A stretch of DNA of 64,000 nt from Carcharhinus longimanus. Its lineage: Eukaryota. The notes below the pieces were generated by a model, which saw nothing but the letters and a program-made list of their open reading frames with translations, did not search any database and had not been told where the DNA came from. Position numbers and translations under genes: made by a program. The DNA lies in the NCBI GenBank assembly GCA_030264375.1, contig JASCQW010000099.1, positions 62,985,823 to 63,049,822 of the forward strand, in the 5' to 3' direction. This document shows, one piece after another, positions 1 to 26,472 of this stretch. The first letter of the stretch is position 1; the number at the start of each line of letters is the position of its first letter.

Positions 1-1963
1 TTGGAAGGTGAGAAAAGTCCAAACTCACTTGATTTAAACTGCCTTCTTTGATCTCCTAGCCCTGGTCTCAGTGCCCTGTGATATTTTTCACGTTAAGTCC
101 TATCCTTGCTCAGTTCTGCCATATTGTGTAACCCAGTTAGTCAAACTTAGGAGCCTCATTCACATTTGGAATACCTCCATTCCCATTTTATTTATATAAT
201 CTATCCCCGATTCAGACAACTCAACTTGTATTCGCAACTCCCTGCTCCTCTCGTTGCTTTTCTCACATTCTCTAGTTCAGAAATCAATCTTGTCAGCCAT
301 TGCACTTCCAACCCAATTTCACATACTATATGTCTCTCTGTGTTTTCCAAAATCAACTCCTGAAACCCATGTCTTTAACTCTGACTGCAGTTTCTCTTTG
401 TCATTCCTCCATGTGTCTTATTACTAGCTATCCTTAAAAACAAAGGATTGTACTGAGTATCACCACCTACGAGCATCCAATCCTGAAAGTCCGGTTTTGG
501 GGAAATAGGGGTTGAGAGGAGGGGATGAATGAGGGATTCTGTGGAGGGGGAGTGGGGCACGAAGGTTCATTGAATATTTTTTCCAACTTCAATTGTTTAT
601 GTTCCAACAAACAAGATCATTCATCACATTAATGGTAAAGAAAATATTATTATAGACGTATGGTTACCTGTAATGTGCCATTCTAATGATTTACAAAACG
701 TGTGATCATTAGAAGGGTGGTTAAAAAAGAAAGGGATAGGCAACAAGTTGGTTAGTCTGGATAAGAGCACATGACCAAAAAGGTTTGGAGACTACTGACC
801 TATTGGTTCCTAGTTATATGAAGAGAAAGATTTGTAGCTGTTTTGAGTCTGTGGTTCACCTACTTGACAAAAATTATTTGTTATTTCAGACCAAACTTTA
901 GGTTTCTACATGTGTTATTCACACAACTTCTCAAAATGCTGGTTCAAAAAGGGTTAGAATTGCTTGTAACCTGTCATTAAATTCGAATAAAATTATCAGA
1001 ATCCTGTGAATTGCCTTCAGTTAAACTTTGTTTCATTAGAACAGAAATTGAAAATGTACAGGCGGCCTGGATATGAAATACCTTGCTGGCCTTGGTAGAT
1101 CTGTTGCTTTTTGCACTGAAGCAAAAGTATAAGTCATAATGATCACTTGCCAATTATTGGCAATTCACAATTTTTAATTGAAATTATTGGATGCTATACT
1201 TTAAACTAAGATTGCTGTAAAATATTTTTGATTTTTAGAACTGGCTTGAGATTACAAACTTTTGGAACTGTTTCCGTAATAAGTGATGATTGTGTTTTTA
1301 GACTGGAACCAGTCTTGTTATTCCAACTAGATTTTGACTTGGAAAAAACTTATGCATTTGCAAGCTTTCATTACACTTTCTAATTCCTAATGTAAAATCA
1401 GTGTACTACTTGGTCATGTGCAGAAAGTTAATAATGAAAGAGAAAATAGTGTTGAGGAAATTCTAGGTCTTTATAAGTTTTGGGAAAGAGTTTGCAACAT
1501 TTTCAGTTCTCCCGCCAACCCTCTTATGGCTCAAGCCTACATTGGGTATATTTTGCAATGGTTGTGTTGAGGCTGACCAATACCAATTACCAAATCATCT
1601 CGTAACAGGATAAAAATGAGAATGTCAAAGAATTTTTCTGATCAAAGCTGCAGCCAAATACATTGATTGATAATTGGATAAAGTAAATGACAGCAACAAA
1701 CTGTGCTGGCACATTCAGCGATGAACTTGCAATTTTTTTGACATTCAATGAGAATAAAGTGATGATTCTGACGAATATAGAAAATTGTTCTATCCTCTTC
1801 ATCAGTCGTAATCAGAGGGTGACGGGGTTACAGTAGATGTAGGTAGAATACCTCAAATCTGCAATGCAAAAACTGACGGTCTGAAAATGAGGCATTTTTG
1901 TCTTAGAGAACTTTGCTGTCTGAGCCACTGAACACTGTTTCTTCTCTGCTTGAAAAATGCTTA

Positions 1964-2026
1964 AACACAGTAAAAAGTCTGACAACACCAGGTTTACGCC
2001 AGTCCAACGCCGGCATTCCCACATCA
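1964..2026. mobile_element. 63-bp Penelope-like terminal-repeat insertion with 13-bp TSD
   Basis: TGAAAAATGCTTA at 1951-1963 and 2027-2039. Internal sequence is shared with 12477-12624 and 24767-24898. Confidence 0.8.
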
Positions 2027-2266
2027 TGAAAAATGCTTACCCAGATGAATGTCCACAATGTAAGCATACGTTCTTGAAACGGTGTGCCGGTCAGCACTGT
2101 GCTAGTTGAACCCCATTCTGGATCGGTTCTAGCTTAGAACATGAACAGCTTACTCCCTCTGAGTCTGATCGGCAGTACATCCTCAGAATCTAAGAAGTTG
2201 GGCGTAAGCTGCTAACAGAAGATTGATATTGCATGAGAACTAAGTGCAAACCTGATATGCAAACTC

Positions 2267-12416: not shown

Positions 12417-12882
12417 TCGTAGAATCCCTACAGTGCGGAAAGAGGCCATTTAGCCCATCAAGCTTGCACCAACAATGAGGTGGCTGGGCGTTCTTGACGA
12501 AGGGACAGGCTGTCCCGAAAGCTTGCGGCTTTTGCTGCAAATAAACCTGTTTGGACTTTAATCTGGTGTTGTGGGATTTCTTTCTGTTTTACCCCAGTCC
12601 AACGCCGGCATCTCCACATCATGGCCAACAATCCCACCCAGACCCTATCACCGTAACCCCATTTATTTACCTTGCTAATCTCCCTAATGCTACAGGGCAA
12701 TTGAGCATAGCCAATTAATCTAACCCACACGTCTTTGGACTGTGGGCAGAAACCAGAGCTCCCTGAGGAAACCCACGCAGACACGGGGAGAATGTGCAGA
12801 GTCCGCACAGTTACCCAAGGCTGGAATTGAACCTGGATCGCTGGCATTGTGAGGCAGCAGTGCTGACCACTGTGCCATCATG
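12417..12882 (-). mobile_element. HE1 SINE carrying a nested insertion at 12477-12624
   Basis: HE1 sequence resumes after the duplicated CCAACAAT. Confidence 0.88.
12477..12624 (+). mobile_element. Penelope-like terminal-repeat insertion with hammerhead-like motif and 8-bp TSD
   Basis: CCAACAAT at 12469-12476 and 12625-12632; TTGACGA-A-GGGACAG-G-CTGTCCC-GAAAGCT. Confidence 0.78.
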
Positions 12883-14352: not shown

Positions 14353-15045
14353 ATCTATGCTGAATTTGTGGAGGGAAACATCTGGGGAATGGAGAGTCTA
14401 GTTTAGATAATATACAACAAATTATATCCATGCCAGCTAGCTTCTTATTGCCACCAGTGCAATGTTATGATAAATCTAGTGTCCAAATAATCATTCCTAC
14501 TTTCGTCTTACCCTGGTCTCTGGTTTCAGGATCGCCCATGCACCGTTATATCCGCCATACAGTAGCACTAATGAATAGACCAGTGGCATGGCCAGAAGGG
14601 CTTGCAAATCAGAAGTTCTAATAATATCGTTACCTATTCATAACAGACCTTTGAGAACACTTATGAAGCGAGGAGTATGATATACAGTAGCTAATATGAA
14701 TTGTGAGCTGTTAATTGATTTATTCAAGTGAGCGGTTAGCAGCATTTCCAAATGTCAATCAGTGAATAATCCTTAACTTTGTTGTGTCAATGTGGATGAA
14801 TTGTAAAATTGTACAATTTTTAACTTGTGTTCTATAGCAGAAATATTTCTAAGAACTTGCTTAGAAATAAAGGGTCACAAAGTATTGGGTTGTAACTAGC
14901 TGCACTTTATACAGTTCCATAGGTGTCGGCTGCATTATAATTTTATTTAAAGAAGGATCCAGTGTTAGTTATGTTACAAAATGTGAATGATATAAGGATT
15001 TTTTTTTCATATACGTTCTAAGCAATGATTGTTCCTTGGTTTCAG

Positions 15046-15152
15046 CATGATGTGTCCCAGACTTTGCTTAAAGCCACCTTGGACAGTGTGGTTGAAGAAT
15101 GTGTCAGCTTTGTGGGAGTGGATATCAACATCAGTTCGGAAACTCTTATGAG
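15046..15152 (+). CDS. SRBD1: SRBD1 internal coding exon ([36 protein letters not shown])
   Basis: ttcag acceptor ends 15045 and gtaggc donor starts 15153. The peptide matches the Tex/SRBD1 'YQHDV..L...LD.VVE.CV..VGVD.N' motif. 107 bp, ending in phase 2, compatible with the next exon. Confidence 0.95.
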
Positions 15153-15551
15153 GTAGGCAGATTCTTTTCCAGTGCCGTAATTACATGGCAGTGGATCACA
15201 GGGTCTCTGTTTAGACTGTCTCTTAACTTAATCTCAGCTGGTGATTTGTGGTCTTGTTTTTAGATTGTCAGCTGTATGGGGAATGGCAAGTTTAGACAGT
15301 ATTTTACCTGCACAGTATTTTTAAAAGTCTTCCTTTGAAGAAAAAATGGGATGAAGGACATAAAACAAAATGCGCCAAGTTATGAATTATGGTCCAAGTT
15401 AAATGCACAATCTCTTTGAACTAATGCAGCATATATGTGTGTCTGTGCGTGTATGTATTTTTTTAATGTTTATATTTTGGGTCAGAGAATTAATGTACTG
15501 CGCTAAAACATGCACTAGGATTTCTGTAATGAAACCATTGAGTATAAAGTA

Positions 15552-15749: not shown

Positions 15750-16868
15750 GTTCTGTTGTCGCCGGATGTGACGTTACAAGTGCCTAGCGTGAGAAACAGG
15801 CTCAGAGTAATATAACGTACACCTGTAAATAAAACTCCATTGTTTAAACTCTTCGTGCTCCCTAGCATCATTCTCCATTGTACATCATAAAAACTGGTGC
15901 TGCTACACACTGGGGACGAAGAAATTTGCCAAGAAAATTCAGGCACTAAAAAGTTAGACAAGAAGCTTTTCTCATATGCTCTGGACCGAACAGGCTAGGT
16001 AGATATGAGTAACGATACTCTGCAGCAGTTAAAAAGCTGGGTGTGTTAAATAAGAGGTTGAAGTTTGGATTGTTGACTTGTGTAAAAGAAAAATCAAGGT
16101 GGCTGTTGGAAACGCATTGCAAAGTGTGCATATGGAAAACATCCATTAATAGAGCAAATAGCATGAGTTTTCAGCGTCACGGGAACCATGATAAAAATAT
16201 GGAGGGATGGAGCTCCTATGCTGAGCGTTTTGCCTGTTTTGCACTGGCAAACAAAATAGTGGAAGATATGAAGGTGCCCTCTTTCCTGAGCAAAATGGGG
16301 CAAAGTCTCAGAAGTTTAGTGCAACCTGAGAAGCCAGGCACTAAAACATATGAACAAATCGTAGATATTTTGCAAGCACATTTTTCGCCAAAGCTGTTGG
16401 TGATTGCAGAACACTTCAGATTCAACAGAAGAAGCCAAGAAGAGGGAGAGTCAATTGCACAATTCATGGCTTTGCTTAAAAAACTTGCAGAATATTGTCA
16501 GTTTGGAGATGTGATGAATGACATAATTTGTCTGTTGGCTCTGCAGTTGGGCAGTACAGAAATATTTGCTAGCCATGTGTAGCCTTACTTAGGAAAAGGC
16601 CATGGATGTTGCTGTTTCGATGGAACTAGCTGCTCAAGAAGCTCAGCAATTCAGCTTGTATACTTGAATACACAAAATGGTGGCTGAATTAGCAGTTAAG
16701 AAACTCAAATATCATATGTGTCACCAGGGCGCAAAAATAGGCCATTCTGCAGCTTAATGCTGCTGTAAAGATATGGTATAGTGAAGCTGTGGGGGAAGAA
16801 AGAGACAATGCAGCGTACCTGTTAGAAGAAAAAGCAAGCTCCACGTAAAAATAAAAATTCAAAACAAT
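15750..16868 (+). mobile_element. Gypsy/Ty3 LTR retrotransposon 5' part: putative 5' LTR, PBS and decayed gag
   Basis: AATAAA at 15828, LTR-like end ...ACA at 15909, then PBS-like TGGGGACGAAG. ORF 16043-16582 has the gag motifs 'W.SY.ERF..F..AN' and 'HF.PK..VIAE.FRF..RSQ.EGES...F...LKKLA..CQFG'. Broken zinc knuckle near 16720. Confidence 0.85.
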
Positions 16869-17361: not shown

Positions 17362-17465
17362 ACAACAACACCACTCACCTGAAGAAGGATCAGCGCTCCA
17401 AAAACTTGTGTTACCAAATAAACCTGTTGGATTTTAACCTGGTATTGTGAGACTTCTTACTGTCC
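17362..17465 (+). mobile_element. Penelope-like terminal repeat, same family as 12477-12624
   Basis: 'cacctgaagaaggatcagcgctccaaaaacttgtg..aaataaacctgttggattttaacctggtattgtgagacttcttactgt'. Confidence 0.72.
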
Positions 17466-21377: not shown

Positions 21378-23992
21378 TTTTAAGACAGTCTTTAAACAGA
21401 ACAAAAGGAGAAATGTTCATTGCTGTATAAAGGGGTCGAGGAAAACATAGCAAACTCACAGTCTGAGGAGGAATTATCATTGAATGTGCTCGTCATTGCT
21501 TGTGCTACACACTAATACTATATCACACCATCACTGGATGGACAGCCAGTAAGGTTGGAAGTTGACACTGAGACAGCAGTCTCGCTGGTGCCAGAATCTG
21601 TTTACAAGAAGAAAATTAAACATGTTCCCTTGAAGTCATCTAGGATATTGTTGAAGGCATACACAGGTGAAATTTCACTTAAGTGCAGCATTGAAGTAGC
21701 TATGCAACTTAATGGGCAAATAGCAGATTTGTTTCTACACGTAGTAAAGGGAAACTGTGCAGCATTGATGGGTTGAACATGGCTGGAGAAGATTCCACTG
21801 AACTGGGCCGAAGTCAACTTGGTGACCAGTGGAGAATCAGGCCTCACGAAAATTCTAAAGAAATACAATGTTGTGTTTGGAAGATTAGGGAGCATTACAG
21901 ACATTGCGGTTGAATGGAAAATAAAAGAAGAAAGCCAAGCAAAATGCTTGAAGGCAAGGTCTGTACCTTATGCTATTATGCTGAAGGTGAAAGCTAAAAT
22001 GGGATGACTTGTGAAGATGGGCATGTTGGAACCTGTATGCATTAATGAATGGGCCATGCCAATAGTTCCAGTCATCAAGAAGGGTGGATCCCAAGATTTT
22101 GGGAAACTTTGTATGGCACCATATGGAACAATACCCGTTACCCCATGTTGGTGACTTGCTTGTGGGATTAGCTGGAGACCAACGTTTTTACAGAATTGAC
22201 CTGAGCCAGACTTAGTTGCAGATGAATGTGGACAAGAAGTCACAAGAACTTCTGACAATCATTGCACGTTAAGGCTTGTTCTGGTACTGAAGATTGCTGT
22301 TTGGTATCGCTTCAGCTCCAGCATTATTTCAACAAGCAATGGATCAGATCCTGAATGGACTGAGTGGAATTCAGTGCTATGTGGACGACATCTTAATCAC
22401 TGTAACAGATTAATAGGAATACTGTTGGAATTTGGACGCTACCCTTCAGAGTTTGGAAGACTATAGTCTGAGAGTCTGGAAGAACAAGAGTGTGTTTTTC
22501 CAGTCCTCTGTTGAGCATTTGGGACATGTGATTAGCACCACTGGCCTTCTCAAAGATCAAGTCTATAACAGAGGCGCCTCTACCTCAGGAAGGAGTGCAG
22601 CTGATTAATATTCTATGGTTATTGAACTGTCCAAACCTGGCAGCTAGTCTGAAACTATTACTATAACAATCTTCTGCGTCAGAACAAGAAGTGGAAGTGG
22701 TCGGCTTCATGCAAGCCAAAGAAGCATTGCTCAAATCTTATGTTCTTATGCATCTTGATCCTACTCTACCTCTATAGTTAGCTTGTGATGCATCTCCTAT
22801 GGTGCAGGAGTCGTGGTCTCCCACATCATGCCATTGGATGAAGAAAGGCCCATTGCTTTTGCTTCTCTAACCTTGAGCAAGGCCACAAGTACCTATGCGC
22901 AGATTGAAAAGTAAGCATTAGGAATAAAGAAATTGGAGTAAAGAAATTCCATTACTCCCTGTATGGGAGAGAATTTACGGTGTTGGCCAGCCATCATCTG
23001 CTAACTATCATTTTTGGACCATACATGGGTCCACTTGCAGCAAGTAGAATGAGAAGATGAGCATTGCTTTTGTCTGCATATACTTAAAAAAAATTAACTA
23101 TCGACAGCCAAGTTTACACTGTCATGGACATGGACACTACAAGATTTCCACTGCCAGGTAGTTCATCAGACTACTCAAGCTGGAATATCTTCTGCAAGTA
23201 GACAATCCACCAGTCACTTGTAGACAAGTGTGGAAGCATACTTGGAGTCATCCGATACTTACAGAAGTGATGGATTTGATATTAGGAGGAAAGTCCTCAG
23301 AACTACCACCTAATCTGACTGCACTATTCCAGGAGATTGGAGCTGTCAGTGCAGCCAGGATGGCTTCTATGGGGACTCATTCTGCCATCATTGAGAAAGA
23401 GAGTACTAGAAAAGTTGTGTGAGGGCCATTGCAGAATCATAAACATGAAGGAGTAGTTATTTCTAATGGCTTGGAATCGATGCAGAAATTAAAGAAAAAG
23501 CCAGAACATGTTCCTCCTGTGCAAAGCCAGCTATCGCTGCATCCATGGAAACAGCCTGAAGAGGCTTGTCACGTGGACTTTGCAGGACTTTTTGAAAGTC
23601 ATATGTTTTTGGTAACAGTTGATACTCCCACAAAGTGGCCAGAGGTCATTGTGATGAAATCTGCTTCATCGAAAAAGATGACCGAGAAGCGAGGAGAAGT
23701 ATGTGGTTGATTTAGATTCCCTGGACAACTGGTAAGCCATAATGGACCTCAGTTTGTCACACAAGAATGTGAAGATTTCTTGCAACGTAATGGTATTCAA
23801 CATATTGGCCCTGATTTTACCTGCATGCCCACCCTGCTCACAGAACAGCATTCCATGTTGGCCTTGGGCGCGATCTTCTGAACCTTGGGCAGGAGTGCTG
23901 ATAAAATTCTGGCCATTAAGTCCACACTGTATGGATTAGCAGAGTGTTTCATCCAAACCATGAAACATACTTTGAGAGCAACCAGGAACAAG
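21378..23992 (+). mobile_element. Gypsy/Ty3 pol pseudogene (protease, RT, RNase H, integrase)
   Basis: Protease 'LEVDTETAVSLV' near 21555; RT 'WAMPIVPVIKK' and YVDD at 22378-22389; RNase H 'LACDAS..ERPIAFAS.TL....YAQIEK'; integrase 'HVDFAG..MFLVTVD...KWPEV' and 'NGPQF'. Many stops and frameshifts; no 3' LTR seen. Confidence 0.93.
23806..23914. mobile_element. Small Harbinger-like MITE inside the Gypsy integrase
   Basis: GGCCCTGATTTTA ... TAAAATTCTGGCC ends with ATT on both sides; the integrase sequence resumes after it. Confidence 0.65.
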
Positions 23993-24521: not shown

Positions 24522-24766
24522 GTAAGTAAATTTCTTTCAAGCTGTTTTTCTTTATGATAAAGGAAAACCAAAACAGCGACCCTGAAGTGGTCTCAGAATG
24601 AGTTCCTTTGCTATCGAATGATGCCGAAATATTCCAAATCAATTAAGCTGACGTGTGACAGGTGCAACAGGACTGTATCAGAAAATAAACGCTGTGATTG
24701 GCCTTGGTTTTAAGACGTTGATTGGCAAACAACATTTTGGACTGGATCTCTGTGCAACATTGGAGC

Positions 24767-24898
24767 ACAGTAAGAAGTCTCACAACACCAGGTTGTACAT
24801 TATGGGTGGTGGTAGGGCTGGTTAAACCTGGCTTTAACCTGGTGTTGTGAGACTTCTTACTGTGTTTACCCCAGTCCAACACTAGCATCTCCACATCA
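24767..24898. mobile_element. Fold-back Penelope-like terminal-repeat insertion with 12-bp TSD
   Basis: CAACATTGGAGC at 24755-24766 and 24899-24910; perfect 29-bp inverted repeat at 24766-24794 and 24836-24864. Confidence 0.85.
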
Positions 24899-24953
24899 CA
24901 ACATTGGAGCCGCAGTCATGTCATTTTACACTCTTCTGTTTTGGTTTCAACAG

Positions 24954-25109: not shown

Positions 25110-26472
25110 GTAAGGACACAAGCAGAAGGCGTGAACTACCCTAGCAATGTAGATGAAATTTATTTCTGTCATAAGGACCAGCTGAAATACGTTTCCTTTC
25201 AAAATGCCAAATTTTATGTGAGATCATAAGTTAATTGCCATTCTTATGCACACCAAAGTAATAAATAGAAAAATTGCCGGTTAATATACTTTAACAGCAG
25301 TTTATATTGCAAGCATAATGTAGGTAGTTTTGTTCAAGCATAACATTTTAAGTGCCAAAAGTCTCTTGTTTTTGAACAAAAGTTGTCTTGTTAAATTGAA
25401 AATAACTAATTACGCAATTTATGCAGTAAGTTGTAACTTCCAACACCCATCAGAATCTGTAATTTCAGCAATCCTTTCTGCCCTACCACCACCCATAATG
25501 TTTAAAATATTATTTAGAGTGTGTAGTTGTTTTGTGTAAATGATGACAACAAAGAGCATAACATTATCATTGAATGGTAGAAGCCCAAAGCATTTGGCAG
25601 GTGTTGGTGTAAAAGTAATCTGTGTTGGCAGTGAAATCTGAGACAGGAAGGTGGCTTGTAGCAACCTTAGAAAATCACACTTGCGTGTGTGCATCATAAC
25701 CGTGCAGTTATCACGGTTTTATCTGGATTTAATCTTGGCTTATTTTTTATGTGTGAAATTCGGATGAACTAAGGCCATCACCTCCACGGTGTGACAGAGG
25801 TGTTAAACGAGTGTCAACTGAACTGGGTTAAGACCTGGTAGGATTTTTTTTAGGAATGCCAGCACTGCCTCAGAACTAGGGACTTTTACTCCTCAGATAC
25901 CTGGTGCACATATCTGGTATCGTGTTACTTCCTCTGAGATGCAACTATTTAACCATGTGATGAAATAAACAAAGGCAGTGTCCTCTGGCTAACCAGCTGA
26001 CGAGACCAGTTAGAAGCATCACAATAAGTGGAGTGACTCAACTATCTGGAACATTGTTACCTCCAAAATAGCATTACATTCTCAGTTTCTGCCTTTGAAT
26101 GCTTCACAATGAATCAGGTTTGAATGTTTGATTCACAATGTTCTCTGTGTGACAGAATTATAAGCTTGTTCTTTATAAACTGGTTAACAATTTTATTACA
26201 TAGTGCTCAGAGGGAATCATTCCCCTTAAGGTTTATGTTGGGCCAAATTGATTTTCTTACCAGGGAGTTCCTTGAAAAGTTTTTTTTTCATATAAACCTT
26301 GATAGAATGTCCTGAAGTTATCAAGTTAAAATTATAATAGCCCTGCCAGAGGCAGGCAGCAGATGTATGTATTTAAATAGAGTGGCATCATCGTGAACAT
26401 TTGGCTATACAGTTCTGTATTTTACATTGTATATGTATGTATAAATGCACTGTCGAAAAACAGCTTGGGAAA

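What the first reader, a model, noticed from the sequence alone, without database searches (positions are those of the whole stretch)
12477..12624. Minimal hammerhead-ribozyme motif in a 148-bp element that jumped into an HE1 SINE
Seen: TTGACGA (12494-12500), A, then GGGACAG-G-CTGTCCC as stem II, then GAAA and a palindromic AGCT. The sister copy near 17375-17415 reads CAC-CTGAAGA-A-GGA.tcagcgc.TCC-AAAA-ACTT-GTG, keeping the CUGANGA box and a CAC/GTG stem I but losing GAAA. The two copies have different but self-complementary stem II sequences, which looks like covariation. Established: Penelope-like elements carry minimal type I hammerheads with a palindromic stem III thought to cleave as dimers (Cervera and de la Pena 2014). 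Inference: the family consensus is a functional ribozyme. Both copies here lie in the SRBD1 sense orientation, and each has a core mutation.
Basis: partly seen in the sequence, partly recalled or inferred. Interest (0 to 1): 0.7.

Follow-up and report, generated by a model that had tools for sequence, protein, structure and literature searches.

The report
Broken ribozyme in shark Penelope stub
This short insert in a shark gene's intron is the clipped end of a Penelope-type jumping gene whose family carries a known tiny self-cutting RNA motif; this copy lost a key part of the motif when it inserted and is very likely dead, and most related copies were apparently made from RNA that had not been cut.

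Summary
The motif is real but of a known kind. 12477-12624 is the 3' end (pLTR plus tail) of a Neptune-type Penelope-like retrotransposon: related copies join to an RT + GIY-YIG-type ORF, end at two sites about 35 nt apart, and often carry an inverted arm. The family has a minimal type I hammerhead; 12,660 genome copies keep an exact core (control 0), and two stem II pairs show compensatory changes. Three corrections. The focal 'core mutation' is an inversion junction: 12478-12494 is the flipped 5' piece, removing C3 and stem I. The sister copy is another subfamily with three lesions. Intact cores are not depleted on the sense strand (3 of 12 against 2 of 17). Cleavage was not tested. This scan has noted shark Penelope hammerheads before (189 findings, at least 16 genomes), including the fixed start.

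The parts
12469..12476 (+). left copy of 8-bp target-site duplication
   Evidence: shorter than the family's usual 10-14 bp
12478..12494 (-). inverted arm: family positions -15 to +1 relative to hammerhead C3 (holds the displaced 5' strand of stem I and C3); stops at the family's fixed -15 boundary
   Evidence: reverse complement matches the forward sequence of subfamily A copies
12495..12623 (+). forward arm: 3' end of the PLE pLTR plus tail, from U4 of the core to the ORF start codon
12495..12501 (+). remnant of CUGANGA box (C3 missing) and the extra A between positions 9 and 10.1
   Evidence: sequence; extra A in 203 of 218 parsed copies
12502..12516 (+). stem II, 6 bp with GGC loop
   Evidence: sequence; G10.1-C11.1 pair; covariation at 10.3 and 10.4 across subfamilies
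12517..12524 (+). GAAA box, AGCU palindrome (predicted intermolecular stem III) and H17 = U; predicted scissile bond 12524/12525
   Evidence: sequence; predicted palindrome duplex -6.5 kcal/mol; hammerhead numbering from PMC4209133
12525..12530 (+). 3' strand of stem I, without a partner in this copy; in intact subfamily A copies it pairs with AGCCAC but with an A.C mismatch at 2.2-1.2
12540..12545 (+). AATAAA followed by a GT-rich tract, possible poly(A) signal of the pLTR (inferred, not tested)
   Evidence: sequence; conserved anchor in all subfamilies
12588..12623 (+). optional about 35-nt PLE 'tail' between the two 3' end sites, ending in the ORF's ATG (12621-12623)
   Evidence: 3' ends 26 at site 1, 23 at site 2, 1 between, 4 earlier, n=54; L085 runs on from this ATG into the ORF N-terminus
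12625..12632 (+). right copy of the target-site duplication
   Evidence: repeat families D5, D14, D17; A and B boxes
17371..17463 (+). sister copy, subfamily B, tail-less (ends at site 1); C3 at 17379; lesions at 17390, 17400, 17404
15031..15153 (+). SRBD1 exon downstream of the focal copy (the upstream exon lies about 45 kb before the window)
   Evidence: tblastn of P0001

Best explanation
The 148-bp insert is a 5'-truncated, partly inverted copy of the 3' end (pLTR plus tail) of a Neptune-type Penelope-like retrotransposon, whose family carries a minimal type I hammerhead; in this copy the inversion removed C3 and stem I, so it very likely cannot cleave. Shown: link to the RT + GIY-YIG-type ORF, two 3' end sites, inverted arms, intact family core, covariation. 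Inferred mechanism: the element's protein cut both target strands and started reverse transcription inside the RNA at the tail sites; one cDNA (forward arm) ran from the tail through the uncut ribozyme to U4; a second cDNA on the other strand gave the inverted arm, which ran to the RNA's 5' boundary at -15; the two were joined head to head. In this subfamily the template likely begins 15-19 nt upstream of the core (a probable transcription start, about 0.55 likely), so these short inserts would be copies of the first 110-145 nt of the element's own transcript. The family ribozyme is probably a slow, dimer- or protein-dependent cutter that acts on only a small share of RNAs before they are copied.
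For: L017 has a subfamily A pLTR directly after a GIY-YIG-type ORF end; L067, L081, L082 carry RT and the CX4CxxC linker plus VVYLI..YIGET motif (RVT_1 E=5e-6); an 881-aa single-ORF relative matches at 56%; L085 continues from the tail ATG into the ORF N-terminus (E=1e-13). Tail: 49 of 54 3' ends fall at two sites. Two arms in 38 of 85 short inserts. Focal arm = reverse complement of -15..+1; stem I pairing probability 0 in the focal copy against 0.4-0.46 (intact A, L312) and 0.98 (intact B, L349). Core: 12,660 exact copies; H17 is U 129, A 64, C 22, G 3 of 218. Covariation: 10.3-11.3 GC 75/AU 68/GU 56 and 10.4-11.4 AU 95/GC 77 of 218, 0 of 2000 shuffles as high; 27 cells with double change against 12.5 shuffled, 0 of 500. 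Uncut templates: 0 of 43 subfamily A segments end at +27..+31; 50 of 56 unselected segments pass the site. Fixed start: 15 of 17 segments reaching -11 stop by -20; 29 of 30 non-C copies stop at -15, 10 of 30 C copies stop at -16..-19. PMC11167929: a lizard PLE protein cuts and extends both strands, starts RT at two internal sites, and uses uncleaved RNA.
Against: No cleavage assay. Pfam found no GIY-YIG hit; the endonuclease call rests on motifs by eye and on the literature description. Shuffle controls ignore relatedness, and two of the five measures did not exceed shuffles (477/500, 495/500); subfamily A is oversampled and about 5 of its 34 contiguous-region parses are spurious. The focal inverted arm does not start at a tail site, unlike most two-armed copies, so an internal jump or another route is needed. 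The readable-end set is biased against long copies (18 of 82 segments dropped for N flanks): 20 of 30 C copies do read far upstream. The -15 boundary is weak or absent in subfamily C (28 of 30 read through). No RNA data could show a start.
Confidence: 0.88

Rival explanations
1. The family hammerhead efficiently cuts the RNA in vivo and the cut product is the normal template (processing or circular-RNA model of PMC4209133).
For: Intact core and covariation. Five readable 5' ends at +28..+32 among 56 unselected segments. In subfamily E about 11 readable ends lie within 3 nt of the cut among 89 segments.
Against: 0 of 43 subfamily A segments end at the cut. In the first 100 of 295 subfamily E copies that break from the parent near the cut (counted by eye), apparent ends were 2 at the cut, 12 at -1, 18 at -2, 7 at -3, 5 at -4, 9 at +1, 10 at +2, with 29 matching through -5 and 8 small deletions: the peak lies 1-2 nt upstream of the cut, and many junctions use microhomology with the partner arm. 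Templates ligated into circles would also pass the site, so circles are not excluded by this test; the sharp -15 boundary is hard to explain with a circle.
Confidence: 0.12
2. The about 145-nt units are an independent non-autonomous family (SINE-like or retrozyme) with its own master copy.
For: Sharp 5' boundary at -15 and defined 3' ends in subfamily A.
Against: The same subfamily sequence runs on into the ORF in 20 of 30 C copies and in L017, L063, L064; no tandem arrays seen; flanks upstream of -15 share nothing.
Confidence: 0.08
3. The -15 boundary is a reverse-transcriptase stall (before the U-rich tract) or a splice acceptor (CAG|AAC), not a transcription start.
For: A pyrimidine tract and CAG precede the boundary; D. 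virilis Penelope has an intron ending at the hammerhead (PMC4209133). The extra-G sign of a cap is mixed: G in 22 of 43 non-C copies (p=0.002) but 11 of 14 at inverted junctions against 4 of 15 at direct ones (by eye).
Against: Ends keep the AG (peak at -15, none at -13) and share no upstream exon; both -15 and -19 are pyrimidine-purine steps; a TATA plus initiator layout is described in a rotifer pLTR (PMC3846280).
Confidence: 0.35
4. Sense-strand intronic copies survive only when the ribozyme is broken (selection against cutting host pre-mRNA).
For: Both window copies are sense to SRBD1 and broken.
Against: Sense 3 intact of 12, antisense 2 intact of 17 across SRBD1 and PRKCE introns (with the focal copy and the copy at 71993 scored by hand; script alone 2 of 11 against 2 of 17, Fisher p=1.0); the focal lesion arose at insertion and the sister's G12>A is the common CpG change (41 of 218 copies).
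Confidence: 0.07

Closest known systems
[quoted passage not shown]
   Same: No stem III loop, palindromic 15.2-16.2, extra base between 9 and 10.1, G10.1-C11.1, short stem I, many variable subfamilies, mostly in truncated copies, some in opposite-strand pairs.
   Different: Sharks are not named in the passages and supplement file searched; count here (12,660 exact cores) exceeds the 4,000 and 9,000 given for coelacanth and Xenopus; subfamily A has an A.C mismatch in stem I.
EN+ Penelope-like elements, Neptune/Nematis type (PMC8557442, PMC3846280)
   Same: Single ORF with RT, CX2-5CxxC linker and C-terminal GIY-YIG-type domain; 5' truncation; inverted 5'-truncated arm; optional 30-40 bp tail; target duplications.
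   Different: Here the pLTR plus tail ends exactly at the ORF's ATG; the rotifer pLTR includes the first codons. Clade not placed on a tree.
PAc (Poseidon of Anolis; Frangieh et al. 2024, PMC11167929)
   Same: Two internal RT start sites giving the tail; both strands extended; uncleaved RNA is the insertion template.
   Different: In PAc the ORF starts inside stem II; here it starts about 127 nt downstream of C3. PAc cleavage was shown in vitro (protein-assisted); not tested here.
Non-LTR retrozymes (PMC7229834 listing; bioRxiv 10.64898/2026.07.22.740005)
   Same: Type I hammerhead, PLE-related, reported in one chondrichthyan.
   Different: Retrozymes are tandem arrays; these are dispersed single or head-to-head ends of an autonomous element.

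Membership tests
EN+ Penelope-like element (Neptune type) | pLTR linked to an RT ORF | tested here: met
EN+ Penelope-like element (Neptune type) | C-terminal GIY-YIG endonuclease | tested here: inconclusive
   VVYLI..WYIGET..RQRMNEH motif seen by eye; no Pfam GIY-YIG hit
EN+ Penelope-like element (Neptune type) | CX2-5CxxC motif before the endonuclease | tested here: met
   CHSNLCKTC in L082 and P0121; definition in PMC8557442
EN+ Penelope-like element (Neptune type) | optional 30-40 bp tail | tested here: met
   26 + 23 of 54 ends at two sites about 35 nt apart
EN+ Penelope-like element (Neptune type) | inverted 5'-truncated arm, partial tandems, target duplication | tested here: met
   38 of 85 two-armed; duplications of 10-16 bp in 38 of 85, none found in 38; tandem in L085
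EN+ Penelope-like element (Neptune type) | placement in the Neptune clade by RT phylogeny | not tested
   no named reference PLE sequences in hand
min-HHR, family level | CUGANGA and GAAA boxes, NUH site | tested here: met
min-HHR, family level | stem II with covariation, G10.1-C11.1, extra base after A9 | tested here: met
   (controls do not correct for relatedness)
min-HHR, family level | stem I of 3-6 bp closing the core | tested here: met
   subfamily A has one A.C mismatch
min-HHR, family level | palindromic 15.2-16.2 allowing a dimer | tested here: met
   GCT in 180 of 218; duplex energies
min-HHR, family level | self-cleavage as a dimer | not testable with these tools
   needs in vitro assay
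min-HHR, this copy | C3 and stem I present | tested here: not met
Rfam hammerhead families | covariance-model match | tested here: not met
   no hit at E<=10 in the window; intact copies were not scanned
Non-LTR retrozyme | tandem repeats with a hammerhead in each unit | tested here: not met
   single dispersed insert; relatives are dispersed or head to head
HE1 SINE (host) | match to the HE1 consensus | not testable with these tools
   only tRNA-type boxes and abundance seen; PMC2911107 says HE1 is a tRNA-derived SINE also found in elasmobranchs

The most novel reading that the evidence does not exclude
In this shark Penelope subfamily the transcript starts 15-19 nt upstream of the hammerhead core, just enough to include stem I, so the ribozyme is the first thing in the mRNA; internal RT priming at the tail then turns the uncut 5' leader itself into a flood of 110-145 bp inserts, and the ribozyme serves not to make the template but as a dimer-triggered switch that removes the mRNA's capped end.
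Probability: 0.3. Interest if true: 0.55.

Novelty: new member of a known kind. Interest (0 to 1): 0.27.

Why it matters
The copy itself is a dead fragment. The family is useful because the role of PLE hammerheads is an open question: thousands of young genomic copies record where the template RNA began and whether it had been cut. Here they say 'mostly uncut, with a fixed start just upstream of the core', extending an in vitro result from a lizard element to in vivo insertions and giving exact positions for a 5' RACE or cyclic-phosphate test.

Tried and rejected
Rfam scan of the window: no hammerhead. Fossil of in vivo cleavage: a cluster at +28..+32 was followed up in subfamily E; the peak is 1-2 nt upstream of the cut and confounded by arm-to-arm microhomology, so rejected as evidence of cleavage. 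Cap-derived extra G at -16: enriched overall but only at inverted junctions, and absent in subfamily C (3 G, about 6 A in the first 100 of 877): inconclusive. Cleavage at AUC before -15 by an alternative fold: stems I and III do not pair (by eye): rejected. Sense/antisense selection: no sign. RNA evidence: no RNA holder listed; four contig sets guessed to be RNA hold related sequence but cannot show starts or ends. One search was aimed by mistake at an inversion junction; its loci L161-L190 entered only, which one search replaced. Row L369 in alignment A1 is in the wrong orientation and stayed. Lunse et al. (RNA Biol, dimer cleavage of PLE hammerheads) was not held: seen only as a reference and a summary in PMC6765202. 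PDB search with the PLE protein: none. Literature searches for a shark PLE hammerhead found no paper describing it; subscription journals and Repbase/Dfam were not searchable, and supplement file 1 of PMC4209133 and the bioRxiv supplements could not be seen and may list sharks.

Full report
Setting. The window is part of a 2.68-Gb genome. An exon at 24343-24498 matches shark SRBD1 proteins at 92-100%. A tblastn of that protein over 464 kb maps 20 exon hits on the + strand from about 155 kb before the window to 13 kb after it; the focal insert lies in the intron before the exon at 15031, the sister in the next intron. PRKCE starts 193 kb upstream on the - strand.

Observation. The letters are as reported. 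An 8-bp repeat brackets 12477-12624 inside a minus-strand tRNA-type SINE. Rfam has no hammerhead hit in the window. A search of the genome gave 3,344 candidates; the 30 best copies show an intact CTGACGA box preceded by CCCAGCCAC. The first 17 nt of the focal insert (12478-12494) are the reverse complement of that upstream stretch (family positions -15 to +1, C3 = 0). The forward arm starts at U4. So the T read as a mutated C3 is the end of an inverted arm, and the 5' strand of stem I is on the wrong strand. Predicted stem I pairing is 0 in the focal copy, 0.40-0.46 in intact subfamily A copy L312 and 0.98 in intact subfamily B copy L349; the focal region folds no better than shuffles (z -0.94). 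The sister belongs to subfamily B (GGAGC/GCTCC stem) and has three lesions (17390, 17400, 17404).

What the element is. In L017 a subfamily A pLTR follows directly on an ORF end with VVYLICC..WYIGET. Loci found with that ORF piece carry RT motifs, a CX4CxxC linker and the same pLTR with varied stem II (RVT_1). An unnamed 881-aa relative holds all parts in one ORF. In L085 the pLTR runs on into the ORF, whose ATG is the last codon of the insert. Pfam gave no GIY-YIG hit. Of 54 subfamily A copies chosen on their 5' part, 26 end at +86..+101, 23 at +121..+130, 1 between and 4 earlier: the optional tail of PLEs (PMC8557442, passages; PMC11167929, parts 1-2 of 4 read). Of 85 short inserts 38 have two arms; duplications of 10-16 bp were found in 38, of 6-7 bp in 9, none in 38. 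The Cys linker points to Neptune/Nematis (PMC8557442, PMC3846280, passages); no tree was built. Density is 75 segments in 864 kb, which would scale to about 2 x 10^5 if typical (inference).

The ribozyme at family level. An exact-core pattern with a free inner stem II matches 12,660 places, control 0. Among 218 parsed copies (subfamily A oversampled; about 5 of 34 contiguous-region parses spurious) 131 have an intact core; the base between 9 and 10.1 is A in 203; H17 is U, A or C in 215; G12>A (a CpG change) occurs in 41. Pair 10.3-11.3 is GC 75, AU 68, GU 56 and 10.4-11.4 is AU 95, GC 77, both above 2000 of 2000 shuffles; the same holds in the 66 unselected copies. On 33 aligned copies 89% of cells pair against 30-51% for slid controls, with 27 double-change cells against 12.5; two of five measures did not beat shuffles, outer pairs were fixed by the search pattern, and one row was misoriented. 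These controls ignore shared descent, but changes recur in several stem lengths (3-6 bp). All features match the min-HHR of PMC4209133 (parts 1-2 of 4 read, one of two supplement sources searched), which reports no monomer cleavage and low dimer cleavage. Subfamily A keeps an A.C mismatch at 2.2-1.2 (AC in 60 of 218) and a 6-nt AAGCUU palindrome that could trap U17; it may be a weak cutter (inference).

Was the template cut? I took 54 of the 57 loci with an exact subfamily A 3' end, giving 82 segments, 64 with a readable 5' end (18 dropped for N). None of 43 that reach the site ends at +27..+31 (the cut product would start at +31; L239 is ambiguous, its junction lies in the palindrome). In the unselected 864 kb, 50 of 56 segments pass the site and 5 readable ones end at +28..+32. 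That cluster was mostly subfamily E, so I tested it: about 11 readable ends within 3 nt of the cut among 89 segments, but in the first 100 of 295 genome copies that break near the cut the apparent ends peak at -1 and -2 (12 and 18) with only 2 at the cut (by eye), and many junctions use microhomology with the partner arm. Run-off at a cleaved end is therefore not shown; most templates were uncut, as found in vitro for PAc (PMC11167929).

A fixed start. Of 17 subfamily A segments reaching -11, 15 stop by -20. Genome-wide the 20-mer spanning -16..+3 has 184 copies with the parental C and 43 without; 29 of 30 non-C copies stop at -15, and 10 of 30 C copies stop at -16..-19 while 20 read on, most for more than 50 nt. 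So roughly 45% of copies reaching this point end within 5 nt (estimate). Ends keep the AG and share nothing upstream, which fits a transcription start at the C|A (-15) and Y|G (-19) steps better than a splice acceptor; an RT stall is not excluded. The focal inverted arm ends exactly at -15. Subfamily C lacks the boundary (28 of 30 read through). A cap-copied G is suggested by 22 of 43 (p=0.002) but is confined to inverted junctions. Public runs could not test this.

Orientation. In SRBD1 and PRKCE introns, intact cores are 3 of 12 sense and 2 of 17 antisense (focal copy and the copy at window 71993, which has a 2-nt bulge, scored by hand). No sign of selection, at low power.

Mechanism. Shown: structure, family link, ends. 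Inferred: both target strands were primed on PLE RNA; the forward cDNA began at tail site 2 and passed the uncut hammerhead; the other cDNA reached the RNA's 5' boundary; head-to-head joining cut through the core. The focal arm does not begin at a tail site; internal jumps of this kind are seen in L007 and L008.

Novelty. A new member of a known kind. Searches for a shark description found none (open literature only); the 2026 retrozyme preprint includes one chondrichthyan (part 1 and passages read). Earlier notes of this scan report the same family many times, including the fixed start and uncut templates in other genomes; I reached both points before reading them and count them as agreement, not evidence.

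Noticed in passing
window 24757-24910: Two-armed PLE stub with a 12-bp duplication (CAACATTGGAGC); between the arms lies a filler whose 22 nt match window 25480-25501 in reverse, i.e. DNA copied from about 0.7 kb away. It sits in the short intron between two SRBD1 exons.
   Followed up: partly
window 1948-2040: Another tiny two-armed PLE stub (tail only on one arm) with a 12-bp duplication and no ribozyme part.
   Followed up: partly
window 12540-12575 and all subfamilies: Conserved AATAAA plus GT-rich tract lies upstream of both RT start sites, so templates must extend past this possible poly(A) signal (promoter-proximal suppression or read-through).
   Followed up: no
subfamily E, e.g. L371-L400: Subfamily with a 6-bp stem I and 3-4 bp stem II (some with a GAAA loop); 5' ends cluster 1-2 nt upstream of the predicted cut, at the edge of the AGCU palindrome.
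   Followed up: yes
window 16013-16579 and 22417-23707: Decayed pieces of an LTR-retrotransposon-like element (weak Retrotrans_gag hit E=0.038; integrase-like stretch by eye).
   Followed up: no
P0124, P0125, P0127: Annotated shark septin 5a, XRCC5 and PPP1R12A-like isoforms contain about 100 aa at 72-78% identity to this PLE's ORF: exonisation or annotation artefact.
   Followed up: no
L091:6494-6841 (-): PRKCE first coding exon, head to head with SRBD1 about 38 kb apart.
   Followed up: yes
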